From assembly GCA_965115985.1 (NCBI GenBank), contig OZ220474.1:3172504-3236503 (forward strand): 64,000 bases of DNA, in the 5' to 3' direction. Below, one piece after another: positions 26,752 through 61,600 of this stretch. The number at the start of each line of letters is the position of its first letter. The stretch's first letter is position 1. The notes beneath the pieces were generated by a model. The model worked only from the letters and a program-made list of their open reading frames with translations. It did not search any database and was not told where the DNA came from. This DNA is from Acidimicrobiales bacterium. Its GTDB lineage: Bacteria; Actinomycetota; Acidimicrobiia; Acidimicrobiales; Bin134. Made by a program: the position numbers and the translations under genes.

Positions 26752-26774
26752 ACCATTCGTCATCGCCTGGCCCG

Positions 26775-26791
26775 CCCCCCCCCCCCCCCCC
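26775..26791 (+). repeat. C17 homopolymer tract at the right edge of the accessory island
   Basis: 17 consecutive C residues read directly from the sequence, followed by an AT-rich 60 bp. Confidence 0.9.
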
Positions 26792-26867
26792 GAACCGGTG
26801 GCCATCTGTTTAGGGGAGGGAATAATGTGTCTAATATGCATTGAGAGTTATTAGAGGTTGTCAGCAG

Positions 26868-27581: not shown

Positions 27582-27628
27582 GATCCCAGCATGGCAGATC
27601 GCTCCCGGCGGGTTGCTACAGTCCCGCC

Positions 27629-28837: not shown

Positions 28838-28865
28838 TTGGTGGTGCTTCGGGTTCGGGCTGGGA

Positions 28866-31800
28866 CTAGGCGGTTGTGGTTGTGGTTCGGGTTAGGGCGG
28901 TGCAGGCGTCGTTGGCGAGGTCTGCGGGGTTGTCGCCGTGGTTGGCGTTGGCGAGGCGGCGGCATTCCTCGGCGAGTTCACGGTCGAATTGCTGGGGGTG
29001 GGTGGCGGCGAGGGTGTCGCCGGCTTTTTGGCGGGCTATGGCTTCGCGACGGGAGTAGGGCAAAGAGCACGTGTCGGCGACGCCGTCGCCGTCGGAGTCC
29101 AATGGGTAGGTGGTGGGTCCGCCGAGGGATTGGTTGGCGCAGTAGGAGGGGCCGGTGATGGTTCCCGAGTAGTAGGGCCCGCCGTCGTCGATGGGCGGGT
29201 ATCCGGGTGCGGCGAGGGCGTCGCCGCCGCAGGGTTCGTCGCCTTCGAGGGTGGCGCAGGCGGCGTTGACCAGTTTCCGGTATTGGTCGGGGTGGCGGTT
29301 GGCGAGGTTGGTGATCGCGTTCTGGCGGGCGATGGCTTCTCGGCGGGTGTAGGGCAAAGAGCAGGTGTCGGCGGTGCCGTCGCCGTCGGCGTCGAGGGCG
29401 AACAGGCGGGCACCGCCCAGGGATAGGTCGGCGCAGAACCTCGGCCCGGTGACGGTCCCGGAGTAGTAGTCGTCGCCGACCGTCGATGCCTCGGTGGGGG
29501 TCACTTCCTCGGAGACGGTGATCGCACCGTCTCCGACCGTGTTTTGGGCTCTCACCGCAAAAATGTAGGCGACGGTGCCGGTACCGCTGTCGAGGCCGGT
29601 CAAAGTGACGGTCGAAGCGTCGGCGGCCATCGTGGTCCACTCCCCCCAGTCGCCGACGCCGATGCGGGTGCGGTGCTGCCAGGCGTTGATCGCCGAACCC
29701 CCGTCACCCGTGGAGGTCCACGCCAGGGTGATCTGCCCGTCGCCGGCGGTCACGGTGAGTTCCGGGGCGGACGGCACCTTGGCGGGGGTGGCGGACTCGG
29801 CGGCGACCGCGCCGGTGCCGGCGGTGTTGGTGGCTCGAACCTCGAAGGTGTAAGCGACCCCGTTTTCCAGGTTCGGTATTGGCATACCGGTGGCGTCGGC
29901 GGCCATCGTCACCCATTCGCCGCCCGTGGTGCGTACTTGCCAGGCGGTGATCGGCGAACCCCCGTCACCGGTCGAGGCCCATACCAGGGCCACCATCGAA
30001 TCACCGGCCGTCGCGGCCAGTTCCGGGGCGGGTGGTGCTCCTGCCGGGGTGGCTTCGGCGGTGCCGGTCGCGCCGGGTCCGACGTCGTTAACGGCTCGCA
30101 CCTCGAAGGTGTAGGCAACACCGTTGGTCAGGTTGGGTACCGCCATGGTGGTCGTGGTCGGGTCGGCCACGACCACCCATTGGCCGCCGGTGGTGCGGTG
30201 TTGCCAGGCGGTGATCGGCGAGCCCCCGTCGCCGGTGGACGCCCATACCAGGGTCACCATCGCGTCGGCGGCCGTGGCGGTCACCGTCGGTGCCGCCGGC
30301 ACCGTGGCCGGGGTGGCCGACACGCTACCCGCGGGGCCCTCGCCGATGGCGTTGGTGGCTCGCACCTCGAAGGTGTAGGTGACGCCGTTGGTCAGGTTCT
30401 CGACGACGTGGCCGCTGCCGGCCACAGTGGTCCATCTTCCGAACTCGGTGTCGTCGGTTCTGGTTCGGTATTGCCAACCGGTGGTCTCCGACGCCCAGGT
30501 CGCCTCGCCGGGCGCGCCCGGGGTGCCGGGGGTCCACGACAGGGTTACTTCGCCGTCGCCGCGGGTGGCGCCCACCGATTCGGGGGCGGGCGGCACCGCA
30601 GAGGGTGTCACCGATTCGGACGCGAACGCGCCGCCCTTGATCTGCGGGTTGGCGGTGGTGGCGCGAACCTCGAACCGGTAAGCGATCCCGTTCGACAGGT
30701 CGCCCACGGTGTGGGTCGCGGTGGTGACGGTGCTGTCGGCGATGTTGGTCCATGAGCCGTAGCCGCCGTCGCCCTGGCGTTGGCGGTACTCCCAGCCGAC
30801 GATGGTGCTGCCCGCCGAACCAGCAGCGGTCCACGACAACACCACTCGGGCGTCGCCGGCGGTGGCGACCAGGGTGCCCGGAGCCGGCGGGCCGATCGGG
30901 GTCACCGCCGAGGTCTCAAAATGGGGGCCCGGCCCGTAAGCGTTACGGGCCCGGACTTGGAACGTGTAGGTGCGCCCGTTCACCAGGTTGCGCACCACCG
31001 CCCCGGTTTCCGCGGATGGTCTGGTGGCGGTGTCCGCGGTGGGGGCGACGGTGGTGCCCAGGGTCTCCCACGCGTCATAAACCCCGCCGGTGGTCTTTTT
31101 GCGTACTTCGTAGGCGACGACCCGGTTCAGGTTCAGTCCGGGTTGGGCGGGTTTGGCGACCCTGATCGTCGCTTCGCCGTCGCCGGCTTCCACCAGTGCC
31201 CGCACCGGAGCGCTGGGCGGGCGACCCGGGGTGGTTGGTAGTGCTTCGGCGGCGGCACCTGCGCCGATGGCGTTGCGGGCTCTTACTCGGAACGTGTAGG
31301 AGGTGCCGTTGGCCAACGCGGTGTCGTCGGCGGCGCCGGCGACGGCGAATTTCGTCACCGTCGCCGTGGTGGTGGCGGCGTGGCCACCGTCCACTTTTTG
31401 CCAATCGCCGGGGGCGTCGCAACCAGTGGTGGTCTCGCAGTACTCCCAACCGGTGATCGCCGGGCCGCCGTCGCCCGCGGAGACCCACGACAACACCACG
31501 CTGCGGTCGCCGCCTTTTGCGGTCAAATTCAGCGGGGCGGGCGGGGCCACCCCCGGTGTCGCCGGGCGGCGCGACTCGATGATCTGCCCGTACCACGGAC
31601 TCTCGTGGTCGGTGTTGTTGGTCGCCCTGACCCTGAATCGGTAGGCGACGCCGTTGTCCAAGCCGTCGACCACGTAACCATCCGACGCGCCGCCCGCGAA
31701 TTGTTCGCCGACGCCGATCGCCGTCCACGGCTGCCACGCTGCGTCGCCCACCCGATGGGAGTACTCCCACACCGTGTCGGCGTAGGTGCCCTCGTCGTCG

Positions 31801-34800
31801 GTGGTCGCGGCCACGAACGCGCCCCCCGCCGACGGTTTGTACTGAAGCTTCAACGTGGCTCGACTCGTGCCCGGCTCCACGTTCAGATAAGGGGGCTCGT
31901 TGGAACTATCGGGGTTGGCTGCACCGGGGAACGGCGGAGCCCCCCAGACGAACCTCAACTCGCCATGTGTACCTGCGCCGAGCCGGTTGACGTGACGCAA
32001 CCTGATGGTGTACTCGGTGCCGAGTTTTTTGGTTACGTCGTGGAAGGGTTTCCAACCGACGGGATTGTCGTCGCCGTCGAAGCGATGCCAGGTGCTCCAC
32101 GGCCCGTCGCCGGTTCTGAACGAGTACTCGTCCCTCAAGCGATCCGGACTGTCGTCGGCGTTGTCGAGCCTGTCGCGGTAAACGTGAAAAACCGCCTCCG
32201 CCCCCGCCGTTTTGGGGTCGGCGGAGTACCCGGCGTGGATGAAACCATCGGGTGAGCGCGGGACGTGGGCCTCGATGCGGGCATGGGCCACCGCGGAGGG
32301 CAGGCCCCCGGTGTTCGCGTCGTCGTCGGAGCGGTGGAAGGCGTTCAACGCCCGCACCACGATGTAGAAATCTCGGTTGTCCTCGAAGTAAGCGACGCCG
32401 TCGGGCAACCCGTCGGCGTTCGGGGGGCGGGGTATCGTCACCGAAGCAGTCGCCGCGCACTCCGGTGTCGTTGTCGCGTCGCAGATCGTTTTCCAGTCGG
32501 TGGAGCTCGCCAACGCGGTGGTGGTCTTGTCCAGTTTGTACTGCCATTTCGTCACCGGGGAGCCGCCGTCGCCGCCGGCCGCCCACGTGATCGTGATGCG
32601 GCCCTCACCGGATTCCGCGTCGTAGGCCGGGGTCAGCGTCACGTTGGTGGGAGCGGCGGGTCTTTGGCCGGGGTAGTGGTCCTTCGTGGTCTGCGCATAG
32701 GCGCCGCCGCCGGTGGCGTTGGTCGCCCGCACCCGGAACCCGTAAGCGGTGCCCGCGGTCAAGCCCGACACCATATAGGTTTGTTCGTCGGTGGCGGTGA
32801 TGCTCGCGCCACCGGTGCCGTCGCTGGTGGCGGTCACCGGGATCGCCTTCCACTCGCCCCACTGGCCGCCGGCGGCTTTTTGGGAGTATTCGTAGCGAAC
32901 GATGGGGGAGCCGCCGTTGTTCAGTTCCCCGCTCGTGTCGAGGGGGGGAGTCCAGCTCAGCGTCACCGAGTCCTTGCCCGGCGTGCCCGCCAAAGCGGTG
33001 GGCGCGCCGGGAACGTCGCCGGGGTTCACATCCGCGCTGGTGGCCGGGGTGCCCGCACCGTTTTTGTTGGTCGCTCTCACCTGGAAACGGTAAACCCACT
33101 CGTTCGCCAAACCCACCACCACATAACCCCGAGTAGCCGCGCTGCTGGCGGGAACCGCCGTCCACCGATCACCATCGACAAAAGCCGGAATGGTGGAACC
33201 CTCGGCCGCGCCCTTGTAGCGGTATTGCCAGCCGACGATGGGCGAGCCGCCGTCGCCGCCGGGTTGCCACGACAGCTCCACCGACCCGCTCGAGGGCGTC
33301 GCTTCCAATCCTCGGGCCCGGCCGGGCACGCCCGAGGCCACCACCCCGGTCGCTTGCGAGTGGGGGCCCGCACCGTTCGCGTTGACCGCTCGTACCCGGA
33401 ACCCGTAAACCGTGCCGTTGCTCAAACCGGTGACGGTGTGGGAGTCGTAGGCGTTGTACTCGCCGCTGGTGAAATCCAAGAACCCCGAAGCTGCCACCAT
33501 GATCGTCCACCCCGACCAGTCCCCATCACCAGTTTTGCGGGACGACTCGTAACGCAACACCGGCGAAAAACCGTTCGCCTCGACCGCCGCGTCCCTGCCG
33601 TCGGCCACCTTCGACCACGACAACGTGACCTGCGAATCCCCCGCCACCGCCTCGAAATTGGCGGGAGCCGCCGGAACCGACGACACCCGGCCCGCGTCGG
33701 GGAACGCGAGCGCCGCCCCGGCGACGCCGTCGGCGTCCACCGCCCGCACCTCGAACCCGTAGCGTTTGCCGACCGTCAAACCCGTCACCGTGTGGGTCGT
33801 GGTACGACCGTCGCTGCCGGGAACCGGCAACCAGCTCGACACCGTCGCGTCCTTGTCGCCGACCACCCAGAACGAGTACTCGTAGCGCACCACCGGAACA
33901 CCACCGGAACCCGAAGCGGGACCCCACCGCAACGTCACCGAACCATCACCAACGACCACCGCAGGCACCACCGAAACAGGAGCACCCGGCCCACCACCAA
34001 CCACCACAGTCGCAGTCGCAGTAGGCGTAGGCGTAGGCGTAGGCGTGGGGGTGGCAGTCGCAGTCGCAGTCGCAGTGGCAGTGGGAGTGGCAGTGGGCGT
34101 GGCAGTGGGAGTGGCAGTGGGAGTGGCAGTGGGCGTGGCAGTGGGAGTGGCAGTGGGAGTGGCAGTGGGAGTGGCAGTGGGAGTGGCAGTAGTCGTGAAA
34201 TCGGTCCGCACCTCGACGCCGGCAGTGGTCGTGCAGGCAGTGTTGACCCCGACGACACCCACCTTGTAACCCCTGGAAGCGACCAGATTGGAGAAAGTAT
34301 GGGTCTTGGCAGTTACAGGGACATCGTCACCGAATTTAACACCCGCAGAAGTGTAAATGCGAAGTATATAACTCACCGTCGCACAAGAACCAGCAGGCCC
34401 GGCCTGCCAAGTAACAACAGCATCCCAAGTATCATTACCAGAATTATGAGCAGGAGCCACCACAACATTAGTCACCGGACTCGGCCTCGTCTGAGCAGGC
34501 GTAGCAGTCGCAGTAGGCGTAGCAGTAGGCGTAGGTGTAGCAGTAGCAGTAGGCGTAGGTGTAGCAGCAGGATCAGCACTAGTAGTAAAGCTGGAAACCA
34601 CTATTTCTCCATTACTCGGGGAACATGACGGGTTGACCGAACGGACACCAACTCGGTACGAGGTGGAAGCACTCAAGCCGGAATGAGAATGAGACCTAGA
34701 CATCACAGTTCTAAGACTTCCGCTTACTATACTATTACCCGAAGAACCCCTATACACCCAAGCAAGCCAACGACTAGCTTCGCACCCGCTCGCCGACAAA

Positions 34801-34979
34801 TCCCAAGTAAAACTAACGGAATTATGAGTAGTAGTAACCTGAATATTGGTGGGCACCTTCGGAGCACCTTGGGCGGTCGCTTTTCCAGGAGCCAGGCCGA
34901 CGTCCGCGGCCACCAAGCCCGCGGCCACCAAACCGACTACGACCAGCAACCCCCAACCGGAGAACCTACGCCTACCCAC
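28866..34979 (-). CDS. Giant secreted fibronectin type III repeat protein (2037 aa)
   Basis: Signal/TM-like N-terminus followed by about 17 FN3-like units (recurrent LSW....GGSPI..W.Y......W..........V.GL.NG..Y.F.VRA.N..G.G). It has a Pro/Thr linker and two C-terminal DxDGDG modules. GTG start at 34979. Confidence 0.85.
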   Translation of the reverse strand: MGRRRFSGWGLLVVVGLVAAGLVAADVGLAPGKATAQGAPKVPTNIQVTTTHNSVSFTWDLSASGCEASRWLAWVYRGSSGNSIVSGSLRTVMSRSHSHSGLSASTSYRVGVRSVNPSCSPSNGEIVVSSFTTSADPAATPTPTATATPTPTATPTATATPAQTRPSPVTNVVVAPAHNSGNDTWDAVVTWQAGPAGSCATVSYILRIYTSAGVKFGDDVPVTAKTHTFSNLVASRGYKVGVVGVNTACTTTAGVEVRTDFTTTATPTATPTATPTATPTATPTATPTATPTATPTATPTATATATATATPTPTPTPTPTATATVVVGGGPGAPVSVVPAVVVGDGSVTLRWGPASGSGGVPVVRYEYSFWVVGDKDATVSSWLPVPGSDGRTTTHTVTGLTVGKRYGFEVRAVDADGVAGAALAFPDAGRVSSVPAAPANFEAVAGDSQVTLSWSKVADGRDAAVEANGFSPVLRYESSRKTGDGDWSGWTIMVAASGFLDFTSGEYNAYDSHTVTGLSNGTVYGFRVRAVNANGAGPHSQATGVVASGVPGRARGLEATPSSGSVELSWQPGGDGGSPIVGWQYRYKGAAEGSTIPAFVDGDRWTAVPASSAATRGYVVVGLANEWVYRFQVRATNKNGAGTPATSADVNPGDVPGAPTALAGTPGKDSVTLSWTPPLDTSGELNNGGSPIVRYEYSQKAAGGQWGEWKAIPVTATSDGTGGASITATDEQTYMVSGLTAGTAYGFRVRATNATGGGAYAQTTKDHYPGQRPAAPTNVTLTPAYDAESGEGRITITWAAGGDGGSPVTKWQYKLDKTTTALASSTDWKTICDATTTPECAATASVTIPRPPNADGLPDGVAYFEDNRDFYIVVRALNAFHRSDDDANTGGLPSAVAHARIEAHVPRSPDGFIHAGYSADPKTAGAEAVFHVYRDRLDNADDSPDRLRDEYSFRTGDGPWSTWHRFDGDDNPVGWKPFHDVTKKLGTEYTIRLRHVNRLGAGTHGELRFVWGAPPFPGAANPDSSNEPPYLNVEPGTSRATLKLQYKPSAGGAFVAATTDDEGTYADTVWEYSHRVGDAAWQPWTAIGVGEQFAGGASDGYVVDGLDNGVAYRFRVRATNNTDHESPWYGQIIESRRPATPGVAPPAPLNLTAKGGDRSVVLSWVSAGDGGPAITGWEYCETTTGCDAPGDWQKVDGGHAATTTATVTKFAVAGAADDTALANGTSYTFRVRARNAIGAGAAAEALPTTPGRPPSAPVRALVEAGDGEATIRVAKPAQPGLNLNRVVAYEVRKKTTGGVYDAWETLGTTVAPTADTATRPSAETGAVVRNLVNGRTYTFQVRARNAYGPGPHFETSAVTPIGPPAPGTLVATAGDARVVLSWTAAGSAGSTIVGWEYRQRQGDGGYGSWTNIADSTVTTATHTVGDLSNGIAYRFEVRATTANPQIKGGAFASESVTPSAVPPAPESVGATRGDGEVTLSWTPGTPGAPGEATWASETTGWQYRTRTDDTEFGRWTTVAGSGHVVENLTNGVTYTFEVRATNAIGEGPAGSVSATPATVPAAPTVTATAADAMVTLVWASTGDGGSPITAWQHRTTGGQWVVVADPTTTTMAVPNLTNGVAYTFEVRAVNDVGPGATGTAEATPAGAPPAPELAATAGDSMVALVWASTGDGGSPITAWQVRTTGGEWVTMAADATGMPIPNLENGVAYTFEVRATNTAGTGAVAAESATPAKVPSAPELTVTAGDGQITLAWTSTGDGGSAINAWQHRTRIGVGDWGEWTTMAADASTVTLTGLDSGTGTVAYIFAVRAQNTVGDGAITVSEEVTPTEASTVGDDYYSGTVTGPRFCADLSLGGARLFALDADGDGTADTCSLPYTRREAIARQNAITNLANRHPDQYRKLVNAACATLEGDEPCGGDALAAPGYPPIDDGGPYYSGTITGPSYCANQSLGGPTTYPLDSDGDGVADTCSLPYSRREAIARQKAGDTLAATHPQQFDRELAEECRRLANANHGDNPADLANDACTALTRTTTTTA
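34008..34193. repeat. Coding microsatellite (12-bp/6-bp units) encoding a (TPTA)n/(TA)n/(TP)n linker
   Basis: Residues 263-324 of the 2037-aa protein. Highly regular ggcagtgggagt-type units are visible on the plus strand. Confidence 0.9.
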
Positions 34980-34994
34980 ACCAGCAACCCTTTT

Positions 34995-35010
34995 GGGGGG
35001 GGGGGGGGGG
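34995..35010 (-). repeat. G16 on the plus strand (C16 on the coding strand), 15 nt upstream of the GTG start of the 2037-aa gene
   Basis: The run length is confirmed by two plus-strand ORF translations crossing it (five GGG codons plus one g). Confidence 0.95.
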
Positions 35011-35223
35011 CGAAGCGATCATCGCGGCCCTGGACCGCGAACCACTACCATGCATCATCGAGCACCTCTCAAGCACATGGCCCGACCCGCACAAGGATCG
35101 GAACCAACACAACCAGCATCAAGCCCCGAACAGTAACCAACCCCTCAACCCCAAACAAGTATTTCCTCGGGGGTGGTGCCCCTCGGGAGGAGATCCAGGT
35201 GGTCGGCACGAAGCCCCTGGGAA

Positions 35224-37494
35224 CTACGCGCCGCGGCCGGCGATGAGCTGTTGCAGGGCGTCCTCGTCGCCCACCAGCTCCGACACCAATCCCTCGTCCA
35301 CGTCGGCCACGATTATCTCCCCCACCTCGTCGGACACCGATGTGAAAAAGCCCAGCTCCTTCATGCCCGCGGTCTGGCGGTAGTTGTCGTCGGTGGGGGT
35401 CAAATACTGGACCGACACCGCGTTGTAGCGCCGAATCAAGTACAGGTGCATCAGTGCCATCAGCCGCTTGCGGCGTAGAGCCGGGCTGTGGGTGTTCTGG
35501 TCCCGTACCGACAGGATGGCCCTCCCCCGCCGATCGTGCAGCACCCCGAACACCACATTGGCCAAGTCCTTGTCGCCGCTGAGCACCACCAGTTGGAGAA
35601 CCTCGGAACCCGCGGTGTAGGGCCGCAGTCTCACCTTGAGGTCGGCATCAACGTGGTTGTGCAGGGCCCACCGTTGCAACCATGCTTCCAGCTCCCGGGT
35701 GGGCACCTCGGTCTGGACGAGGTGCTGGAACTGGGTGGAGCCCTTGCCCATGGCCCGGGTGGTGGCGGTGCGCCCGGAACTGGCCATGAGCGCGGCGTCC
35801 AGACGGGGGCCGCCCACCAGGGTTTGCGGGGTCCGGTAGGGGGAGTCCACCAGGCGGAACCTCCGCTGGAGCCGGGCCAGGGCCAGCATCCCGTCCTGTT
35901 GGAGGGAGGCGGCGAACTCCTCGCCGGCCATGCCGTCCACCTGGTGGCCGCCGTAGGTGATGAAGTTGAAGACGAACCCCATCCGGCCCAGTTCGGCGGG
36001 GAACTCCCGCATCTCGTCCTCGCTCATCCCGGTGGTGTCCCAGTTGAACGACGGCGACAGGTTGTAGGCCAGCATCTTGTCGGGATGCACCGCGTGGATG
36101 GCCTCGGCGAACTCCCGGGCGTCGTTCAGGTCGGCGGTCTTGGTCTCCATCCACAACAGGTCGCAGAACGGGGCCACCGCCAGCGACTTGGCCACCGCGT
36201 AGGGTATGCCGCCCTGCACCTGGTAGTAGCCCTCGGTGGTCCGGGCCACCTCGGGATCCCAGGTCACGTCGAGGCCGAGCTCGGTGGCTCGGGACCGGGC
36301 GGTGGCGGTGTCGACGCCGGCGGCGAAGCCCAGCCACTCCCCCACTCCCATGTCGAAGGTCTCCCCCTCCGATGATCGCAGCGCCAACTGGTCGGCCACC
36401 GCCTGGGGATAGGTGGCCAGCCCCGCGGCTCGGTGCCAGGCCTCGGCCAGGGCGTCGGAGACCCGGTCCACCGCCTCGTCGGGCCGAGGATCGGGCGACG
36501 CGTGGTAGGCCACCATGGCCTTCTCGATCTCCCGACCGACCCCCGACTGGTCGAGCCAGGCCGAGGCCCGGCCATAGCGGCTCTCGGGCACCGCGTACAG
36601 AAGATGACCGTTGACCCCTTCCACCCCGGCCTCGGCGAGACGGCGCAGCACGGCCAGATAGGCATCCTTGTACGAGGGAACCGACGGCTGGGTGGCCCCC
36701 ATGATGAACGGCTGGTCGCGCTCGTCGGTGCCGCCGTCCAACAGGTTGGCCGCCTCGGCGTCGGTGCGGGCCACGATGATGCCGGCCACCCCCATCACGT
36801 CGAGCTGGAACCGGGCCGCGTTGAGCCGCTTGATCTGCTCGTCGCACGGCACCAGCACCTTGCCGCCCTGGTGGCCGCACTTCTTGAGCCCCGGCTTCTG
36901 GTCCTCGATGTGATAGCCCGGTACCCCGGCCTCCACGAAACGGCGGATCAGATTGCGGACATGAGGATCACCGCCGTGACCGGTATCGGCGTCGGCGATG
37001 ATCGTGGGGGTGAAATCGACGATGGGAGTGGTCTGGCGTTCCGCAGCGCTCATCCGGGAGCGGGCGAACCGCTGGTTCCGGTCGGCGGTCAAAAGGGCCC
37101 GCACCAACCCGGCCGCCTCGTCGGGCACCATGCTCAACGGATAGCTGGCCAGGTCGGGGCCGGGATCCTCGTGCCGGGCCCCCTTGGCCGACGTGGCCCA
37201 TCCCCCCAGGTATATGCCCTCGATCCCCGCCCGCTTCATGGCCACCGCCTGGCCCGGCGAGTACGGACCGAACGTGGAGATGCACCGCCCCTGGTCGAAG
37301 AGCTCCCTCAACCGACTGTGGAAGCGCTCGGCCGCCACCCGGGCCACGGGGTGGTCCTGGGCGATCACCCCCCGCTGCTCCACCACCTGGCGGGCCGAGT
37401 ACAGGCGGGTCACCCCCTCGAAACGGGACGAGGCCATCCACTCCCGGGTGGATTCGACCTCGGCATCGAACGAACCGGCAGCGTTGACGGTCAT
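35224..37494 (-). CDS. aceA: Isocitrate lyase, long (ICL2/AceAb-type, 756 aa)
   Basis: ICL signature KKCGHQGGK. The N-terminal [28 protein letters not shown] is typical of ICL. An extra internal/C-terminal domain gives the ~750 aa length. Confidence 0.9.
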
Positions 37495-37587: not shown

Positions 37588-37733
37588 TTCCCTCTCGCCT
37601 TCGGCCTCCGCCCTCCCGGCTGTCCGATGATGGGAGCACGAGCTTCCCTCTCGCCTTCGGCCTCCGCCCTCCCGGCTGTCCGATGATGGGAGCACGAGCT
37701 TCCCCCTCGCCTTCGGCCTCCGCCCCGTGGGGT
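37588..37733. repeat. 2.6 x 56-bp tandem repeat in the divergent aceA/glcB intergenic region
   Basis: Copies start at 37588, 37644 and 37700 and are near-identical. Confidence 0.95.
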
Positions 37734-37747
37734 CGTAGCCTGAAGCG

Positions 37748-39997: not shown

Positions 39998-40009
39998 GCT
40001 AGGGCAAGC

Positions 40010-40198
40010 CCCAGGGCGTCCTCGGTCCATTCGATCTCGGGGACATGCTGATCGGCCAGCGTGGCCGCCGCCCGACCCATCAGCCCAGGGCGTCCTCGGT
40101 CCATTCGATCTCGGGGACATGCTGATCGGCCAGCGTGGCCGCCGCCCGACCCATCAGCCCAGGGCGTCCTCGGTCCATTCGATCTCGGGGACATGCTG
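40010..40198. repeat. 2.5 x 74-bp tandem repeat between glcB and the sulfotransferase gene
   Basis: Copies start at 40010, 40084 and 40158. Each contains ggacATGCTG. The last, partial copy provides ATG 40193. Confidence 0.95.
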
Positions 40199-41509: not shown

Positions 41510-41679
41510 CCGCGCCGAGCAAGCGGTGGAGTTGGAGTCCTGACCGCGCCGGGCAAGCGGTGGAGTTGGAGTCCTGACCGCGCCGGGCAAGCGGTGGAGT
41601 TGGAGTCCTGACCGCGCCGGGCAAGCGGTGGTGCTGGAGTCCTGACCGCGCCGGGCAAGCGGTGGTGCTGGAGTCCTAG
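41491..41679. repeat. 5.5 x 34-bp tandem repeat between convergent genes
   Basis: Copies start at 41491, 41525, 41559, 41593, 41627 and 41661. The sulfotransferase TGA (41507-41509) is in copy 1. The stop of the minus-strand thioesterase gene (41680-41682) abuts the last partial copy. Confidence 0.97.
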
Positions 41680-42348: not shown

Positions 42349-42402
42349 ACGACTACCAGCACGGGGGACTCAAGGAACCGAGGGGCTCGATGAACCGATA
42401 AA

Positions 42403-42558: not shown

Positions 42559-42570
42559 CTGGCAGGGCCG

Positions 42571-44521: not shown

Positions 44522-44538
44522 GACCGAACCACCCTACC

Positions 44539-52448: not shown

Positions 52449-52569
52449 GATCCATATAATATGACGGTTGATGACACTCCGACCGATCGTGCCGGCCGTG
52501 CAAGCGCGATCCGAAGCAGGCCACTTCATGTCCTCTGCCCAGCCCACCATTCTCTGGAGGCGGCTATGA

Positions 52570-52588
52570 CCCCCCCCCCCCCCCCCCC
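52570..52588 (+). repeat. C19 homopolymer tract upstream of the ~3631-aa gene
   Basis: 19 consecutive C residues, 6 nt before the TTG at 52595 and 39 nt before the ATG at 52628. Confidence 0.9.
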
Positions 52589-52627
52589 AATCAATTGCGG
52601 TTGTCAAGCTCGAGTCCGAGGCGACGA

Positions 52628-55600
52628 ATGGTTCGGAATAACCGAACCATCGCTCGCGAGGCACTGTCGCCTTCGCGGTTCCTGGCGCTTGCCGTTGCCT
52701 TCCTGCTGGTGCTGACGGTGACCCACGCCGTGTATTCGCCCGAACCCGCCACAGCACAAGCCGCGGTGCCGGTACTCACGGGCACCCCGGCCAATGCCCA
52801 GGTGGCCCTGTCCTGGGTCTACCCCACCGACCCCAACATCACCAACTGGCAGTATCAACAGAAGAAAGATGCGGCGGTCTACGGCGATTGGAGCGACATC
52901 GACGGCTCTGACGCCGGCACCCGCGGCCACACGATCACGGGCCTTACCAATGGCGCGGTCTACGGCTTTCGTGTTCGTCCTGTGATCGGAAGCACCCCCG
53001 GCACCGCATCCAGAGAGATCACGGCCACCCCGCGTGGTATCCCCTCTGCTGCGACAGGCCTCACCGCCACGCCCGGTGACGGGCAGATAACTCTGTCGTG
53101 GGACAGGCACCCGGATGCCAGCATCTCAGGCTGGGAGTTTTGGTACAAGCCGACGGATCTCTACCAGGGGGGCAGCTGGGCACCCATAGCTGGTTCTGAT
53201 GCCACCACCACCAGCCACGCGGTCACTGGCTTGACCAACGGAAGGGAATACGTCTTCCAGATTCGTGCCGCCAACCGGATTGGTCGCGGACCCATATCAG
53301 CAGAGGTCAAGGCCACGCCCGTAGCCGCCCGGCCCGCTGCGCCGACCGGTGTCACCGCGACTGCGGGCCATCAGCAGGTGAGCTTGTCGTGGAGCGACCC
53401 TGGCCAACCCAGCATCACCCGCTGGCAATATCAACAAAATGACGGTACCGGCTACGGCTCGTGGACGAACATGGCCGACTCCACTGCGACAACCACCAGC
53501 TATACGGTGACGTCCCTCACCAATGGCACTGCCTACAAGTTCAAGGTCCGTGCGGTGAATGACAGGGGGGCCGGTACCCCATCAGCAGAGGTTACAGCCA
53601 CGCCAACACTCCCTCCGCCTGCCAGACCTACGGGTTTTCGAGCTTTGGGATCGGGTCCTATAACGAATCCTGTCACCGGCTACTATGCGGGTCGGCTGAC
53701 GTTTTATTGGGATAATCCAAATGATCCCACGATCACCAAGCGGCAGTATTACGAGCATGACTTTGGAAGAAGGTGGATAGATCTAGCCAATTCCGGTGCT
53801 GATACCACAAGTGCTTCGATTCGAGTGAGCGCAGGTATTGGATTGCCATACAGTATTCGTGCCTGCAACATGGCAGGATGTGGTGCATCTACTGCTCGAA
53901 CTGGCTTTGTCAGGCCGAATCGACGGGATCCAAGGCCGGCGAAGCCGACCGGCCTTACCGCTACTGAAGTGGGTGATGGATTTGTGACATTGTCTTGGGA
54001 CAACCTGGGGGATTCCGGCATCGGCTATTGGCATGTTCGGTGGTGGGTGGTTGGGAGCAGTCGCCCGAACTGGGATGCAAGCCTTTCCCAGGTAGCCAGG
54101 GTTGATGGCGCAACCAATACCACCTATAAGGTGGAGCGTTTGACGAGTAATGAGGAGTACGAATTTCAGATCAGGGCGTACTATTCCTCGGGAAACAAGG
54201 CGAACATTCAGGACTCGGATACGATACGTGCTACTCCGATATCGGCACCTGGTATACCCGGCGGGTTTCGTGCCATAGGTGGGGATACGCAGGTTACTTT
54301 GTCATGGAACAAACACAGAAGTTCTGGTATCACCCGGTGGGAATATCAGCAAAGGAAAGAACCAAGTGGAACGGGCAAGTTTGGTGACTGGATTCCCATC
54401 CCAGGTTCCGATACTGCTACCACCAGTCACACTGTAACCGGTCTTCAGCAAGGAGGCACATACACCTTCAAAGTTCGTGCTGTGAACCGTATCGGCAATG
54501 GTCTAGCCTCAGCAGAGCGTACCACTGTCGCTGAGACAGATGCAGAGGTGCCTTGCAGGGTAGTCCTTTCGGACGCTTTGGGTAGCAATATTAGGAGCGG
54601 TCAAATACGGGTTAGTTTTGACATACTTGTTCCGGAAAACTGCGGGAAGATCACCTTTTTTGATTATCAAGCCAAGACTCTCAGCCAAGACTGGGACGAT
54701 GTGAACTGGCAGCCTGTGACCAATTTCAATGGAGATGATTTCGAGAATATGCCGACCTTTCAAGTACGTAAAAACGCCGCAGAGTCAGATGTATCAGTAA
54801 CTTCCCCCCAGAATTTGGATGTACGCATTCGGGCAGAAAACTTAGGCGCGCTTGAGGAGGGTCCGCCCTCTGATCCAGTGCGGATTTGGGCTGGGGATGC
54901 TCCGGCTGTTACCGGACTCAGGGCGGCAGGCAACGATAGGTCGGTCACCTTGTTTTGGGACCCCAAGCCTGACCGGGGCGTTATACATTGGGAATACGGA
55001 TACAAGCCTGATGGTGGGAATTGGTCAACTGATGTGCAGCTAGATGCTAAAGCCTCCATGACTCGGGTCTCCGGTCTGGCCAATGGAACCGAATACACGT
55101 TCCGTTTGCGGTCCCAGTCAGGGTATAATGGCGTGAAGAGCGATTGGGTTGAAACCACAGCCATACCAACAGTTACACCGCTCGGTGTTACGGTTTCTGA
55201 GTCTGAGTTGACCGTGGCGGAGGGCAGCAGTGGCACCTACACGGTCAAGTTGAACGCCGCCCCGTCTGACGATGTAACAGTTTCGATAATCGGGTCCTCT
55301 GGCGATGTGACGGTGAGTCCTCCCAGTCTGACGTTTACCACCAACAACTTCAACAGTGTGCAAACGGTGACAGTTTCGGCAGCCAAGGACGATGATGCAA
55401 TCATTGACCCTCCGGTGACTTTGACGCACAGTGCCTCTGGAGGGAGTTATAGCTTTGTGGATATCGGTTCTGTATTGGTGAAGGTCACAGACAGGGACAC
55501 CGCTGGTGTTACGGTTTCCGAGTCTGAGTTGACTGTACGGGAAGGCACCAGTCAGACCTACACCGTGAAACTTGATACACGAGCCCAGGAGAATGTGACG

Positions 55601-58600
55601 GTTTCGATAAGCGGAGCCTCTGGTGATGTGACCGTGTCACCTGAGAAACTGTTCTTTACCACCAGTAACTTCAACACTGCCCAGACGGTGACTGTGGCAG
55701 TTGGAAGTGACTCGGATTCGGTTGACGATCCGCCGGTTACTTTGACACACGCCGCATCCGGAGGAGATTACGGCGGCGTGAGCATTGACTCACTGACGGT
55801 GAATATCACTGACTCCAATCCACCTGCGGCACCAACAGGTCTGACGGCAACGTCAGGTGATACGAGCGTTGATTTGTCGTGGAACGATCCCAGCGACCCA
55901 AAAATCACCAGTTGGCAATTTCAGTACAAACCCGATGGCGGTAGCTACGGTGGATGGGCGGGGATTGCCAACTCTGGTGCCTCCACCACCACTCACACAG
56001 TCACGGGCCTGACCAACTACACGGAATACACCTTCCAGGTTCGCGCCGTCAGTGCCAATGGCGAAAGCGATCCCTCCAACGAAGCTACGGCAACGCCGAA
56101 GGCACCACCACCCGCAGCACCAACCGGCTTGACCGCCACTCCCGGTGACGGAGAGGTTACTTTGGGTTGGACCAACCCCAGCAATGCCAGCATCACCCGC
56201 TACGAGTATCAGCAGAAGATCGGTACCGGTAACTACGGTGCATGGACGGCGATTGCCAGCTCTGGTGCCTCCACCATCAGTCACACGGTTGCATCCTTGA
56301 CGAACGGCACTACTTACGCCTTCAAAATTCGAGCGGTGAACTCCACCGGCAATGGTGCAGCCTCAGCCGAGGCAACCGCCAGGCCGCTACCGCCTCTACC
56401 TGCAGCACCGACCGGCTTTACAGCTAATCCTCGCGATGGATCGGTACTGCTGCTTTGGTCTGATCCAGGTAATGCCAGCATAACGGGTTATGAGTTTCAG
56501 TTGAAGATGGGCAATAACTATGGCCCGGAGTGGGCACCGATTTCAGGCTCTGATGCGCTTACTACCGAACACATAGTCCCAAACTTGAAAAACGGTACTG
56601 CCTATACATTCAGAATCCGAGCGGTGAATCTGGCCGGCAAGGGTGCGCCTTCCGCCGATTCGACCGCGACCCCAATACCTGTGCCCGAAAGTCCTAGGAA
56701 ATTCGAGACTATTGGAAGTGATGAGCGGGTGACCTTGTATTGGGCTAATCCGAAGGATCCCACGATCACGAAGTGGCAGTATCGATACAGACTTTGGACT
56801 CTTCAGATCCCCGGTTTTCAGAGTCCGCCGAACCCTTTTGGCGCATGGACGGATATGAGTGGCTCTGATGCCACCACTACAAGCTTCGCGGTTACGGGAT
56901 TGACTAGCGGTACATTTTATGATTTCCAAATTCGTGCCGTTAACGTCGCCGGTGACGGCTTAGCTTCTAAAGTACTTACGGAAGCGGCAATCGCTAAGCC
57001 GGCTAGGCCGAGCGGCCTTACCGCTACTCCAGGTGATGGACAGGTGACCCTGTCTTGGGACGATCCTAAGGATACCAAGATCAGTCATTACCTTTTAAGG
57101 TACAAGGCCCCCACTGATTTTATTCATCCACCATGGGTTGAGAGCCATGCGCAGGTATTCAAGGTTGACGGCGCAACTGCTGTCACTTATACTGTGACAG
57201 GTTTGAACAATGGTACGACCTATGACTTCCAAATTGTGGCGTACCACATATCAACACCGGGCACTGCGTCGAAGTCGGTGCGTGTTGCTCCCGTGTCACC
57301 GGCACCGGCCAAACCCACTGGTTTGACGGCCACGGCTGGTGTGAGATCAGCGATGTTGTCTTGGACTGATCCCAATGACGATTCGATAACCATCTATGAG
57401 TACCGTCAAAGGAAAGGCAGCGATAGTTGGGGTGGCTGGACTCTGATTCCTGGTTCGGGTGCTGAGACTACGTCTCACACGGTGTCTGGCTTGGATTATA
57501 CCGATGATTACCGGTTCCGGATACGAGCCAAAGGCACCACCGGCAATAGCCCAGCATCAGAGGTAGTAACAGTCGCGCCCGCTTTCGGCACCCTGAGCAT
57601 TGCTGATGTGTCAGCAGATGAAGGCGGCACGTTCACCTTTACCGCGATGGTCAGTGCTGCGCCTCCTGAGAACCTGGATTTCAAGTATACTGTCACGGCA
57701 GAAACTGGTGATACGGCTATACCTGGTACGGACTTCACGGCAGTAACCATTGCAACCGCGGCCCGCATAAATGCCACCGAGACCAGCACCACTATCACAG
57801 TGACAGTTAACGATGACGGCGTGGTTGAACCTGATGAGACGTTCACGGTCACTCTTTCGGACGTGCCGGAAAGCATAATTTTGGCCGATGTAACCGCGCA
57901 GGGCACGATCACCAATGACGACAACACGCCGGTGCTGACTGCGATTGACAACTTCACGATCAAACGTGGTCAAACGGTTGACATAACAGCTTCTGCCACT
58001 GATGTGGATGCCTCTGATGCGATCACTTACTTGTGGGCGCGTAAGGCTGGTGAGACTCCTGCGGCACCTGCTGGGATCACTCTTGGCCAAGCACAGTTGA
58101 CGTTCACGCCGACGGCACTAGGAGCTTACACGTACACGGTTACCGCGTCAGACAACCACGGTAACGAGACTACTGAAGAAGTGATTATTACCGTGGTCGA
58201 GGCTGCCACAGTGTCAAAGTCCAGCATCGAACTCACTGAAGGTGCTAATGGCACGTACACGGTGAAGTTGAACTCCGTGCCGAGCGGTGATGTGACGATC
58301 ACGGTTGGTGGGGCCACTTCTGATGTGACGGTGGACAAGTCCTCGTTGACGTTCACCACATTGAACTGGAGTTCGGCTCAGACGGTCACGGTCACCACAG
58401 AGGCGGATGAGGACACCACCGACGAAACGGTCACGTTGACCCACACCGCTTCGGGTGGTGGCTACGTCTCGGCAACCATCGCATCCGTGAGGGTTTCGGT
58501 GACCGATACGACGCCTACCTTCCAGCTCCTCACTGATCCGGCTGATGTGACCGAGGGAGATAACATCAGCCTCACGGTCACGTCGGACATGTCGCTTACG

Positions 58601-61600
58601 GGAACCAAGCAAGTAACCCTGACACTGGCCGCGAGATCATCGAGCACTTTTGATGCTGATGATATTCCAGGCACTCTAGGCCCCAGATCCTTCTCAGCCA
58701 ACTTTGGGAGCAATCCCAGCAAAACCGGAACCATATCAATTCCTACCAGCAGCGACTCGGACACCGAAGGTACGGAAGCCTACCGAATCACCCTCAATGA
58801 AGGGACCGGTTACGCGGCGGGCACGGATAAAAGAGCAGACGGCAACTTGCTCGACCTGGCTCCTCCTCCGACCATCAATTTGAGTGTTGGTGATGTGTCG
58901 GCTTTGGAGGATGGGACGTTCACGTTCACTGTGACGGCTAATCCGATACCGACTGAGGGGATCAGTTTCAAGTACAAGGTGACCGCCGAGACCACCGATA
59001 CCGCTACCGCTACCGATGACTTCACCGCGGTGACCACTGCTACGGCCAAGACCATCGCAGCCAACACTGCTACTACGACGATTGTTGTCACGGTCGTGGA
59101 CGACGACCTGGACGAAAAAAACGAGACATTCACAGTGACCTTGTCCGACCCGTCCGACGGCGTTACCATCAGTGATGCGACTGCTACGGGTACCATTAAT
59201 GACAACGATAATTCGCCGGTGTTGACCGCGATTGATGATGATACCTTGTACTTGGGTCAGCAAGTCGATATCAGAGCGACGGCCACTGACGCCGATGCCG
59301 ACACGATCACTTACACGTGGGCGCGCAAGGCCGGTGAAACTCCTGCGTTGCCTGGTGGTACTGCTTTGAGTGATAGGCGTTTGCGGTTCACTCCTACCGC
59401 TACGGGCACCTACACGATGACGGTCACCGCATCCGACGGTAACGGCAACTCCGCCACCGAGGAAGTGGTGATAACCGTTATCAACGCGGCCACCGTGTCG
59501 AAGTCCGCGTTGACCGTCGAGGAAGGCAGCACCGGCAGCTACACGGTGAAACTCAACGCCGAACCCACCGGTAATGTGACCGTCACCGTTGGTGGTGTTT
59601 CGGGTGATGTGACGGTGGACAAGTCCTCGTTGACTTTTACCACGACCGATTATGCCACTGCTCAAACGGTGATGGTGACCGCTGCTGGTGATGAGGACAC
59701 CACCACCGATCCGACCGTGACCTTGACCCACACCGCTTCGGGTGGTGGCTATGGTTCCGCGACGATCACGTCGGTAGTGGTAACTGTCACGGAGAACACG
59801 CCGACGCTTACATTGGGAAATAATCCTGCCGCGGTGACCGAGGGCGACAATATTTCTCTGACCGTCACGTCGGACCGATCCCTGACGGGAACTCTCCAAG
59901 TCTCGCTCACGCTGGCCGATCGAGGATCCAGCGGATTCGACGCTGCTGACATCGCCGGCTCCTTGGGTCCACGAAACTTCACCGCCACCTTCGGCAACAC
60001 TGCTTCCACCACCGGGACAATCACCATCGCAACCAACACCGACACCAACGACGAAGGCGCAGAAACCTACACCATCACCCTGAACGACGGCACCGGCTAC
60101 GCCATCGGCACGGACACCACCGCCGAAGGAACCATAAACGACCCCACCCCAACACCCACCCCCACCCCCACCCCAACACCCACTCCTGTTCCTACGGTGT
60201 CGTTGAGCATTGCTGATGTGTCGGCTTCGGAGGATGGGACGTTCACGTTCACTGTGACGGCCAATCCGATACCGACTGAGGGGATCAGTTTCAAGTACAA
60301 GGTGACCGCCGAAACCACCGATACCGCTACCGCTACCGATGACTTCACCGCGGTGACCACTGCTACGGCCAAGACCATCGCAGCTAACACCGCCACCACG
60401 ACAATCACTGTAGTGGTGGTGGACGACGAGCTGGATGAAAAAAACGAGACGTTCACGGTGACTCTGTCGGACCCGTCCGATGGTGTGATTATTGGTGATG
60501 CGACTGCCACGGGTACCATCAACGACAACGATAATTCGCCGGTGTTGACTGCGATTGATGACGACACCTTGTATTTGGGCCAGCAAGTCGATATCAGGGC
60601 GACGGCCACCGATGCGGATGCCGACACGATCACTTACACGTGGACGCGCAAGGCCAGTGAAACTCCTGCGTTGCCTGGTGGCACTACTTTGAGTGATAGG
60701 CGTTTGCGGTTCACTCCTACCGCTACGGGCACATACACGATGACGGTCACCGCATCGGATGGCAGCGGCAACTCCGCCACCGAGGAAGTGGTGATAACCG
60801 TTATAAACGCGGCCACGGTGTCGAAGTCCGCGTTGACCGTCGAGGAAGGCAGCACCGGCAGCTACACGGTGAAACTCAACGCCGAACCCACCGGTAATGT
60901 GACCGTCACCCTTGGTGGTACGACCAGCGATGTGACGGTGGACAAGTCCTCGTTGACGTTTACTACCTCGAATTGGAGTGCGGCTCAGACAATCGTGGTT
61001 ACCGCAGAGGCGGATGAGGACACCACCGACGAAACTGTCACGTTGACCCACACCGCTTCTGGTGGTGGCTACGCCTCGGCGACGATTGCGTCCATAAGCG
61101 TTTCGACGACCGATACTACGCCCACTTTCCAGCTTCTCACCGATCCGGCTGATGTGACCGAGGGTGGCAGCATCAGCCTGACCGTCACGTCGGACATGTC
61201 GCTTACGGGAACCAAACAGGTGAGTTTGACGTTGGCGGCGAGGTCGTCGAGTACTTTCACTGCTGCTGATATCGTAGGGACACTAGGGCCCAGGTCCTTC
61301 TCGGCTGATTTTGGTAGTACTCCCAGCAAAACTGGAACCATCTCGATTGCTACGAGTAGCGATTCGGCCACCGAGGGTACGGAAGCCTACCGGATCACCT
61401 TGAACGATGGTGCGGGTTATGCACTGGGTATGGATAAAAGAGCAGACGGCAATCTGCTCGACCCGACCCCTACTCCGACCATTAATTTGAGCATTGCTGA
61501 TGTGTCGGCTTCGGAGGATGGTACGTTCACGTTCACGGTCACGGCCAGTCCGATACCGACTGAGGGGATCAGTTTCAAGTACAAGGTGACCGCCGAAACC

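What the first reader, a model, noticed from the sequence alone, without database searches (positions are those of the whole stretch)
34995..35010. C16 tract (coding-strand sense) 15 nt upstream of the GTG start of the 2037-aa FN3 protein
This is a second giant secreted FN3 protein, on the opposite strand and 17 kb away. It has the same feature: a long poly-C run just 5' of its start, followed by AAAAGGGTTGCTGGT and then GTG. Two unrelated loci sharing this arrangement argues for function (coordinated or stochastic switching of surface proteins) rather than accident.
Basis: partly seen in the sequence, partly recalled or inferred. Interest (0 to 1): 0.7.

Follow-up and report, generated by a model that had tools for sequence, protein, structure and literature searches.

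The report
Frameshift-prone poly-C switch in adhesin gene
A run of 16 C's sits just inside the start of a giant surface-protein gene of an uncultured sponge-symbiont bacterium and most likely acts as a slippage-prone on/off switch, a known trick of host-associated bacteria that I did not find described for sponge symbionts.

Summary
The C16 tract is real: G16 at 34995-35010 on the + strand, 15 nt before GTG 34979 on the - strand. It is far beyond chance. The window comes from a relative of the sponge symbiont 'Ca. Poriferisocius' (Acidimicrobiia).

Homologous FN3 genes in related genomes show that the family's native start lies upstream of the tract. That start has a conserved Shine-Dalgarno site (GAGGTGYT..ATG) and a short basic peptide, then an S/T codon, then the C-run. 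The run is read as poly-Pro in the signal-peptide n-region.

In the window, ATG 35058 followed by C15 or C18 gives a 2063/2064-aa preprotein. The assembled C16 gives a 28-aa peptide. The second giant FN3 gene behaves the same way: ATG 52566 with C19 is OFF, and C17 or C20 is ON.

Homologous genes in other genomes carry C8, C13, C14, C14 and C16 at that site, and an unrelated FN3/LRR gene carries C32 near its 5' end. Some are in frame and some are not. One tract-free paralog reads straight through.

The best reading is a translational phase-variation (contingency) locus, as in Cutibacterium acnes adhesins. No read-level length variation could be tested. The tract could instead act from the 5'-UTR of a GTG-started gene.

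Verdict: a new member of a known kind, of moderate interest.

The parts
34995..35010 (-). C16 homopolymer on the coding strand, read as Pro codons in the native frame. This is the proposed slippage site.
35065..35070 (-). Shine-Dalgarno-like GAGAGG, 6 nt before ATG 35058. It belongs to a GAGGTGCT block shared with the leaders of homologous genes.
   Evidence: Compare L088 gcGAGGTGCTgaaATG, L086 GGAGGTGTTTCTGATG and GAGGGGTGTTCTCATG.
35011..35058 (-). Proposed native start (ATG 35058-35056, second ATG 35055-35053, third ATG 35022-35020) plus 16 pre-tract codons, MMHGSGSRSRAAMIAS.
   Evidence: The peptide aligns with MAKRSRIRSST, MPKRSRTMSTT and MPKRIGTQS of homologs.
34972..35058 (-). The 28-codon out-of-frame ORF produced in the assembled C16 state (MMHGSGSRSRAAMIASPPPPPQKGCWCG*). 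Its TAG stop lies 5 nt after the first base of GTG 34979.
34977..34979 (-). GTG: first start codon of the ORF as assembled. In homologs it is a conserved Val codon (GTGGGTAGGCG is identical in L086 gB). It is a possible internal or re-initiation start.
28866..34979 (-). 2037-codon FN3 protein ORF with a signal peptide, Cys-containing FN3-like domains, PT linkers, 9 or more fn3 domains, and no LPXTG motif. GC3 is 0.78, against about 0.87-0.90 in neighbouring genes.
28838..35223 (-). Lineage-specific insertion (FN3 gene plus its leader) between the isocitrate lyase gene and the MFS/SDR genes. In 11 related genomes these are adjacent, about 20 nt apart in most (about 160 nt in L001).
52570..52588 (+). 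Sister C19 tract in the second giant FN3 gene.
52556..52568 (+). GGAGG (52556-52560), a 5-nt spacer, then ATG 52566-52568, immediately 5' of the C19 tract. C17 or C20 gives a 3651/3652-aa ORF; C19 gives 49 aa.
52595..63523 (+). 3642-codon FN3/Calx-beta/PKD/He_PIG ORF. GC is 56.8% and GC3 is 0.63. The internal ATG at 52628 lies in a 9-bp hairpin stem.
26775..26791 (+). Orphan C17 tract between the 3' ends of a DUF6036 gene and an SDR gene, at the edge of a strain-specific defence island. It is the same class of tract but its role is unexplained.

Best explanation
The C16 tract is a hypermutable homopolymer inside the 5' end of the FN3 gene's native reading frame.

Translation normally starts at the SD-preceded ATG at 35058. 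It reads 16 codons (MMHGSGSRSRAAMIAS), then the C-run as 5-6 prolines, then KRVAGVGRRRFSGWGLLVVV.., which is the rest of the signal peptide.

Slipped-strand mispairing during replication adds or removes C's:
- C15 or C18 keeps the frame and gives a 2063/2064-aa secreted FN3 protein (ON).
- C16 or C17 ends translation after 28 or 40 codons (OFF).

As assembled, both giant FN3 genes in the window are in an OFF length. Any residual expression would have to come from the internal GTG 34979 or ATG 52628.

The result would be heritable but reversible cell-to-cell variation in which giant host-facing surface proteins a sponge symbiont displays.

Shown:
- the tract and its non-randomness;
- the frame arithmetic;
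- homology of the leader, including the SD, the ATG and the pre-tract peptide;
- different tract lengths and frame states in homologs;
- a tract-free paralog that reads through.

Inferred:
- that length changes occur at high rate in the population;
- that they switch expression;
- the biological role.
For: 1. Frame test.
- From ATG 35058, C15/C18 gives 2063/2064 aa, while C13/14/16/17/19 give 27-40 aa.
- From ATG 52566, C17/C20 gives 3651/3652 aa, while C19 gives 49 aa.

2. Homologous FN3 genes found with the N-terminal 135 aa carry a C-run at the same place.
- L085 has three tandem paralogs with GGAAGGAGtcatactATGTCTA-Cn. C14 and C8 are in frame and were called as MSTPPPPENS.. and MSTPPENS... 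The third has C16 with ATG changed to ATAG.
- L086 has two paralogs with SD-ATG, then MAKRSRIRSST / MPKRSRTMSTT, then C13 / C14. Both are out of frame and need C12 or C15.

3. The tract-free paralog P0284 (L088) has the same SD block (GAGGTGCT) and reads MPKRIGTQSPSLMVWKR..GWSLLLV without interruption. The upstream start is therefore the family's native start.

4. The 6.1-kb and 10.9-kb ORFs downstream of the tracts are intact. These are not decaying pseudogenes.

5. The same lineage uses long G/C tracts as frame switches elsewhere. A GHKL-like first gene of a defence-like cassette carries G19, C17, G11, C11 (all out of frame) or G15 (in frame) at one codon position in five genomes.

6. Run lengths are bimodal, so the long tracts form a special class.

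7. There is a close precedent in another actinobacterium. In C. acnes PPA2127, a C-tract in the 5' end causes frameshifts and the start codon is mutated in some strains (PMC3224659).
Against: - GTG 34979 alone gives a textbook signal peptide (MGRRRFSGWGLLVVV..) and is preceded by AAAGGG. Gene calls on homologs start there (P0268, MRRRRFALWG..), so the tract could lie in the 5'-UTR.
- Of the 7 genes whose frame was tested from an upstream ATG (6 family members plus the unrelated L087), 3 are in frame. This is about the 1/3 expected if frame did not matter.
- In L086 the 24 nt between the tract and the GTG are identical in the two paralogs, although the coding sequence differs. This hints at a non-coding regulatory element.
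- No same-locus strain comparison or read data was available, so hypermutability is inferred, not shown.
- The window's source assembly and its sequencing technology are unknown. If it comes from long reads, homopolymer length error could mean the true length is C15 (ON).
- For C. acnes, tract variation was reported to track clades rather than switch actively (PMC4746626).
Confidence: 0.62

Rival explanations
1. 5'-UTR or promoter-type switch. The gene really starts at GTG 34979 (and at ATG 52628 for the sister gene). The tract, 15 nt upstream and abutting the SD, changes transcription or translation initiation when its length changes. It could do this through spacing, or through where the short upstream ORF stops relative to the start. 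With C16, that upstream ORF stops 5 nt after the GTG, which would allow termination-reinitiation.
For: - The signal peptide from the GTG is typical, and the GTG is conserved.
- The upstream ORF's stop overlaps the GTG in the C16 state.
- The post-tract 24 nt are identical in the L086 paralogs.
- An intergenic example exists in L014: C17 lies 159 nt upstream of a lipoprotein gene, and no tract length fuses the frames.
- C. acnes PPA1880 was interpreted this way (PMC3224659).
Against: - No sigma-70-like hexamers flank the tract, and 15 nt leaves no room for a -10 element plus a leader.
- The leader RNA is not unusually structured (z = +0.8 and -1.3).
- The SD, the ATG and the pre-tract peptide are conserved across genomes, and the tract-free paralog reads through.
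- In the sister gene, the internal ATG 52628 sits in a 9-bp stem.
Confidence: 0.22
2. RNA-level slippage acting as a 'dimmer'. On a run of 16-32 C's, RNA polymerase itself slips. Every cell then makes a mix of mRNA frames and expresses the protein at a reduced level whatever the DNA length. The tract would set the level rather than switch ON/OFF.
For: - The tracts are much longer (16, 19, 32 nt) than classical phase-variation tracts.
- Most alleles are out of frame, yet their ORFs are intact.
Against: - No transcript data are available.
- Slippage is documented mainly for A/T runs.
- This mechanism does not exclude DNA-level switching.
Confidence: 0.1
3. Not functional: an assembly or sequencing artefact, or a mutational scar in a dying gene.
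For: Homopolymer length is error-prone in sequencing. Both genes read as frameshifted relative to the upstream ATG.
Against: - The tract sits at homologous positions in independent assemblies, whose record names suggest different assemblers.
- The ORFs of 2037 and 3642 codons downstream are intact.
- Only 0.10 matches are expected by chance, against 19 observed at 3 loci.
Confidence: 0.04

Closest known systems
Cutibacterium (Propionibacterium) acnes putative adhesins PPA2127/DsA1 and PPA1880 (PMC3224659; PMC4746626)
   Same: - The organism is also an actinobacterium.
[quoted passage not shown]
- The proteins are secreted and carry PT repeats.
- Length change causes a frameshift and premature stop.
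- Some alleles have a mutated start codon, as in L085 g1 (ATG changed to ATAG).
- Intergenic tracts between convergent 3' ends also occur there.
   Different: - The class (Acidimicrobiia versus Propionibacteriales) and the host (marine sponge versus human skin) differ.
- The proteins here are giant FN3 arrays with no LPXTG motif, and homology to DsA1 was not tested.
- The tracts here reach 19 nt, and 32 nt in L087.
- In C. acnes, tract variation tracked clades, suggesting slow change.
Classical contingency loci of Neisseria, Haemophilus, Campylobacter and Helicobacter, with intragenic poly-G/C (e.g. hmbR/hpuAB, pgtA, Cj1295; PMC3786947, PMC2193922, PMC3068675, PMC5084427)
   Same: A homopolymer near the 5' end of a surface or host-interaction gene. 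A change of +/-1 nt switches the frame. Several independent loci occur per genome.
   Different: Those are Gram-negative pathogens, and their tracts are shorter as far as I recall (about 8-14 nt; from memory, those papers were not opened here). Switching has been shown experimentally there and not here.
Promoter-spacer homopolymers (C. acnes PPA1880, PMC3224659; from my own knowledge, not checked here: Bordetella fim poly-C, Neisseria porA/opc)
   Same: A G/C tract upstream of a surface-protein gene whose length tunes expression.
   Different: Those tracts lie between or upstream of the -35 and -10 elements. Here no such hexamers flank the tract, and an SD-ATG reads into it.
Mycobacterium tuberculosis complex homopolymer phase variants (glpK 7C and others; PMC10334774, 10.1101/717272)
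   Same: Reversible frameshifts at C/G runs in an actinobacterium.
   Different: The runs are short (about 7-9 nt) and lie in metabolic or regulatory genes, not in leader-embedded tracts of surface proteins.
Phase-variable restriction-modification and defence genes (phasevarions; my own knowledge)
   Same: This applies to the side observation: a G/C tract in the first gene of a defence-like cassette with a C5 methyltransferase.
   Different: The tract-bearing gene is a GHKL-like protein that hits PADLOC candidate PDC-M33A, not the methyltransferase or a specificity subunit.

Membership tests
Translational (intragenic) homopolymer phase-variation / contingency locus | Homopolymer far longer than base composition predicts | tested here: met
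   C16. 19 C12 matches (3 loci) against 0.10 expected. Run-length spectrum is bimodal.
Translational (intragenic) homopolymer phase-variation / contingency locus | Tract lies inside the ORF near its 5' end, so that +/-1 nt toggles full-length versus truncated product | tested here: met
   From ATG 35058, C15/C18 gives 2063/2064 aa and C16 gives 28 aa. The start is assigned by homology of the SD, ATG and pre-tract peptide, and from the tract-free paralog. It has not been determined experimentally.
Translational (intragenic) homopolymer phase-variation / contingency locus | Tract length polymorphic at the same locus among close strains or within a population | tested here: inconclusive
   Lengths differ among paralogs and homologs in other genomes: C8, C13, C14, C14, C16 at the homologous site, C19 in the sister gene and C32 in an unrelated FN3/LRR gene. 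No ortholog of this exact gene was found and no reads were available. Two contigs from one sample carrying the defence gene both had G11.
Translational (intragenic) homopolymer phase-variation / contingency locus | Reversible high-frequency ON/OFF switching of expression | not testable with these tools
   Needs read-level, transcript or reporter data.
Translational (intragenic) homopolymer phase-variation / contingency locus | OFF alleles keep an intact downstream ORF, and the gene class is surface or host-interaction | tested here: met
   Open frames of 2037 and 3642 codons, with signal peptides and FN3/Calx-beta/PKD domains.
Transcriptional phase variation by a promoter-spacer homopolymer | Tract located between or just upstream of the -35 and -10 elements of the gene's promoter | tested here: not met
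   No sigma-70-like hexamer pair lies around the tract on either strand. The tract ends 15 nt from the GTG. Caveat: actinobacterial promoters are poorly captured by this scan.
C. acnes DsA1/PPA2127-type adhesin family | Sequence homology to DsA1 and dermatan-sulphate binding | not tested
   Only the architecture was compared (5' C-tract, PT repeats; PMC3224659). No LPXTG motif is present in either window protein.

The most novel reading that the evidence does not exclude
Sponge-symbiotic Acidimicrobiia run a lineage-wide contingency system. Unusually long G/C tracts (11-32 nt) have arisen repeatedly, and independently as G or as C, at the first permissive codons of two gene classes: host-facing eukaryotic-like (FN3/LRR) surface proteins and phage-defence genes. 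At these lengths the tracts may work by both DNA and RNA-polymerase slippage. Each cell lineage would then sample a different surface and defence repertoire inside the sponge. This would be a route to evading host phagocytosis and phage that I did not find described for sponge symbionts.
Probability: 0.4. Interest if true: 0.68.

Novelty: new member of a known kind. Interest (0 to 1): 0.52.

Why it matters
Sponge symbionts are known to be enriched in eukaryotic-like proteins (fn3, Calx-beta, LRR) and in defence systems (PMC11706023). How their expression is controlled in these uncultured bacteria is unknown.

A slippage switch built into the start of such genes would mean that symbiont populations are phenotypically mixed for host-facing surface proteins and for phage defence. 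This is directly testable from existing deep metagenomes by counting tract lengths per read.

There is also a practical point. Gene callers mis-start or split these genes. L001's defence gene is annotated as a 592-aa fragment, and the window's FN3 gene reads from an internal GTG. Catalogues of eukaryotic-like proteins and defence genes in such genomes are therefore distorted.

The held literature did not link sponge symbionts with phase variation or homopolymers.

Tried and rejected
- Exact-sequence look-ups of the ICL and FN3 proteins found nothing on record.
- A word-indexed search with the FN3-2037 N-terminus gave no hit. This is probably uninformative: listed hits never exceeded about 1.75 times the query length (my inference).
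- The same search with the FN3-3642 N-terminus returned only generic FN3 arrays and no N-terminal ortholog.
- Two JGI metagenome scans, one with the window N-terminus and one with the L085 paralog alignment, found nothing.
- Rfam and tRNA scans of the window found nothing.
- Promoter and terminator scans around all three tracts found nothing near the two FN3 tracts. One weak site lies next to the orphan C17.
- Leader RNA folding was not more stable than shuffles, so a structured riboregulator is rejected.
- I tested whether the orphan C17 is a relic of the tract-bearing defence gene seen at the syntenic spot in L001. tblastn found no remnant.
- I considered that G versus C at the same codon position of the defence gene means a dedicated tract-writing mechanism. 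I rejected this as unnecessary, because tract-free relatives have short Gly or Pro codons in that loop (e.g. ..TSPPDFEL....GGSEPF..). Independent expansion is therefore enough.
- I considered poly-C as the end of a mobile insertion. The tract lies 213 nt inside the insertion boundary, and in homologs it lies within the gene, so this was rejected.

Full report
**Observation**

The + strand carries G16 at 34995-35010. On the coding (-) strand this reads C16, then AAAAGGGTTGCTGGT, then GTG at 34979. That GTG is the first possible start of a 2037-codon ORF, 28866-34979. Pfam finds 9 fn3 stretches in this ORF.

The window (64.3% GC) has only three homopolymers longer than 7 nt:
- C17 at 26775-26791;
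- this G16;
- C19 at 52570-52588, just before the 3642-codon FN3/Calx-beta/PKD ORF 52595-63523.

A C12 pattern matches 19 times, all inside these three loci. The mean in 100 dinucleotide-preserving shuffles is 0.10.

**Source organism and context**

The neighbouring isocitrate lyase (35224-37494, -) is 92% identical to that of a complete 'Candidatus Poriferisocius sp.' MAG (L001). Synteny with about a dozen sponge-associated Acidimicrobiia MAGs runs over more than 20 kb.

In eleven of the fifteen closest loci (L001-L005, L007-L011, L015), the lyase gene is followed directly by the MFS and SDR genes (window 26862-28837). The gap is about 20 nt in most of them and about 160 nt in L001. The FN3 gene with its leader (28838-35223) is therefore a lineage-specific insertion.

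Both giant FN3 genes have atypical composition. Their GC3 is 0.78 and 0.63, against 0.87-0.90 for neighbouring genes.

**Long tracts are a class of their own in this clade**

Counts were taken over about 415 kb: the window plus 18 of the 19 related loci (L082, a second contig of L081's locus in the same sample, was left out). G/C runs number 166, 14, 1 and 1 for lengths 6, 7, 8 and 9. A gap follows. Then there are ten runs of 11, 11, 11, 15, 16, 17, 17, 17, 19 and 19 nt.

Tracts occur in assemblies whose record names suggest different assemblers: L013 has a SPAdes-style name, others have long-read-assembler-style names. This argues against an artefact.

**What the tract does to reading frames**

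An SD-like GAGAGG (35070-35065) lies 6 nt before ATG 35058. From that ATG the frame reads MMHGSGSRSRAAMIAS and enters the tract as prolines.
- With C16 it stops after 28 codons, 5 nt past the GTG.
- With C15 or C18 it continues as ..PPPPPKRVAGVGRRRFSGWGLLVVV.. into a 2063/2064-aa protein.

The sister gene is built the same way: GGAGG, 5 nt, ATG 52566, one A, then C19.
- C19 gives 49 aa.
- C17 or C20 gives 3651/3652 aa.

**Comparative evidence for the native start**

An exhaustive profile search with the first 135 residues found close N-terminal homologs. Their contigs were fetched.

L085 (67.6% GC) has three tandem FN3 paralogs with the leader GGAAGGAGtcatactATGTCTA-Cn-GAAAAT:
- C14 and C8 are in frame and were called as MSTPPPPENSQRRRR..WGLLVVAGLV and MSTPPENS...
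- The third has C16 and ATAG in place of ATG, so it was called from a downstream ATG.

L086 comes from the same sponge sample as L001. It has two paralogs:
- SD-ATG MAKRSRIRSST-C13;
- SD-ATG MPKRSRTMSTT-C14.

Both are out of frame and need C12 or C15. Both are followed by GTG(G/C)GTAGGCG. In gB this block (GTGGGTAGGCG) is identical to the window's sequence at 34979.

A further paralog, P0284 (L088), has no homopolymer. It has the same SD block (GAGGTGCT) and reads MPKRIGTQSPSLMVWKR..GWSLLLV without interruption.

DNA and protein alignments place four features in register across the family:
- the window's SD;
- its RSR motif;
- the S/T codon before the run;
- the RRF..WG.L.V core.

The family's native start is therefore upstream of the tract. 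The tract is a poly-Pro stretch in the n-region of the signal peptide.

A separate FN3/LRR gene (L087) carries C32 in the same kind of position.

**Independent support from a different gene**

In L001, L013, L081/L082, L083 and L084, the first gene of a four-gene defence-like cassette carries a tract at one codon position, after the ..QNSWDAA.. motif. The cassette consists of:
- a GHKL-like protein that hits PADLOC candidate PDC-M33A;
- an unknown protein;
- a DUF6339 protein;
- a C5 DNA methyltransferase.

The tracts are G19, C17, G11 and C11, all out of frame with the gene split or truncated in annotation, and G15, in frame as ..NGGGGGQ...

Tract-free relatives have one or two Gly or Pro codons in that loop. 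G-runs and C-runs therefore appear to have expanded independently. In this clade, long G/C runs behave as frame switches.

**Mechanism proposed**

Replication slippage at the C-run toggles the gene between an in-frame state and two out-of-frame states. This gives stochastic, heritable and reversible expression of giant secreted FN3 proteins.

The anatomy, the frame arithmetic, and the homology and length diversity among homologs are shown. Actual hypermutability, the effect on expression and the biological role are inferred.

**Rival explanations**

1. The tract lies in the 5'-UTR of a GTG-started gene.
   - For: the typical signal peptide from the GTG, the conserved GTG, the upstream-ORF stop overlapping the GTG, and the 24 identical post-tract nucleotides in the L086 paralogs. 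Also, only 3 of the 7 genes frame-tested from an upstream ATG (six family members plus L087) are in frame, close to the 1/3 expected by chance.
   - For: an intergenic tract does exist in L014, where C17 lies 159 nt before a PT-rich lipoprotein gene and no length fuses the frames.
   - Against: the conserved upstream initiation region and the read-through paralog. No promoter hexamers flank the tract. There is no significant leader structure.
2. RNA-polymerase slippage on such long runs could make expression independent of DNA length.
3. An artefact or a pseudogene is unlikely (see the observation and context sections above).

**Comparison with what is known**

The closest precedent is in C. 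acnes.
- PPA2127/DsA1 has a 5' cytosine tract whose length change causes a frameshift, and some strains have a mutated start codon.
- PPA1880 has a G11/13/15 tract that has been read either as a promoter spacer or as the N-terminus.
- Both are PT-repeat surface proteins (PMC3224659).
- 54 polymorphic, almost exclusively G/C, tracts are known species-wide, including some between convergent 3' ends (PMC4746626).

Mechanistically this is the classical contingency locus of Neisseria, Campylobacter and Haemophilus.

What is new here:
- the host group (uncultured sponge-symbiotic Acidimicrobiia);
- the cargo (giant eukaryotic-like FN3 proteins, known to be enriched in such symbionts; PMC11706023);
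- the tract lengths (16-32 nt);
- the parallel use of tracts in a defence cassette.

Searches of the held literature found no paper linking sponge symbionts with phase variation or homopolymers.

**Limits**

- No ortholog of this exact gene and no reads were available.
- The exact tract length in a metagenome consensus may be off by one, so the ON/OFF state of the window's two genes is provisional.
- The orphan C17 at 26775-26791 is unexplained.

**Verdict**

This is a real feature and very probably a slippage switch. It is best read as intragenic rather than upstream. It is a new member of a known kind, of moderate interest.

Noticed in passing
window 26775-26791 (+): A third long tract, C17, lies 23 nt after the stop of a DUF6036 nucleotidyltransferase ORF and 77 nt before the stop of a convergent SDR gene. 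This is exactly at the edge of a strain-specific defence island (20658-26861: Vsr, C5 methylase, MNT/HEPN, IS3). A weak sigma-70-like site (26799-26826) and an SD plus 9-codon ORF (MCLICIESY) follow it. No long ORF can be fused at any tract length.
   Followed up: partly
L001 15940-15958; L013 4430-4446; L081 10005-10015; L083 9983-9993; L084 3171-3185: A conserved four-gene defence-like cassette (GHKL-like protein hitting PADLOC PDC-M33A, an unknown protein, DUF6339, C5 DNA methylase) carries a G or C tract (G19, C17, G11, C11, G15) at one codon position of its first gene. Four of the five are out of frame, and public annotation shows truncated fragments.
   Followed up: yes
L087 6128-6159: A C32 tract lies inside the 5' end of an FN3/LRR secreted-protein gene (P0343). 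It sits between an MTRTDRRRFP-type N-terminus and a second signal-peptide-like segment, and is in frame as assembled.
   Followed up: partly
L014 14795-14811: C17 lies 159 nt upstream of a PT-rich lipoprotein gene in a 49%-GC relative. Stops in all frames between the tract and the ATG make this an intergenic (transcriptional or UTR) type of tract.
   Followed up: yes
window 37588-46597: Seven near-perfect tandem repeats (periods 34-74 nt, 2.1-5.6 copies, 95-100% identity) lie at successive gene boundaries after the isocitrate lyase / malate synthase genes. This is unusual for a bacterial chromosome.
   Followed up: no
window 52625-52652 (+): A perfect 9-bp inverted repeat, ATGGTTCGG-aataa-CCGAACCAT, encloses the internal ATG 52628 of the 3642-codon FN3 ORF. 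It would sequester that candidate start codon in a hairpin.
   Followed up: partly
window 52455-52460 (+): A perfect TATAAT hexamer lies about 105 nt upstream of ATG 52566 in a 64%-GC genome. It is a candidate -10 element for the FN3-3642 transcript.
   Followed up: no
window 57000-63000 (+): FN3-3642 contains three roughly 440-aa near-identical internal modules (Calx-beta / He_PIG / PKD / Big_9). Its GC content is 56.8%, far below the surrounding genome, which suggests recent internal amplification and foreign origin.
   Followed up: partly
L083 1236-1246: A second C11 tract in the same locus lies in the intergenic region between a SnoaL-like gene and the lgt gene.
   Followed up: no
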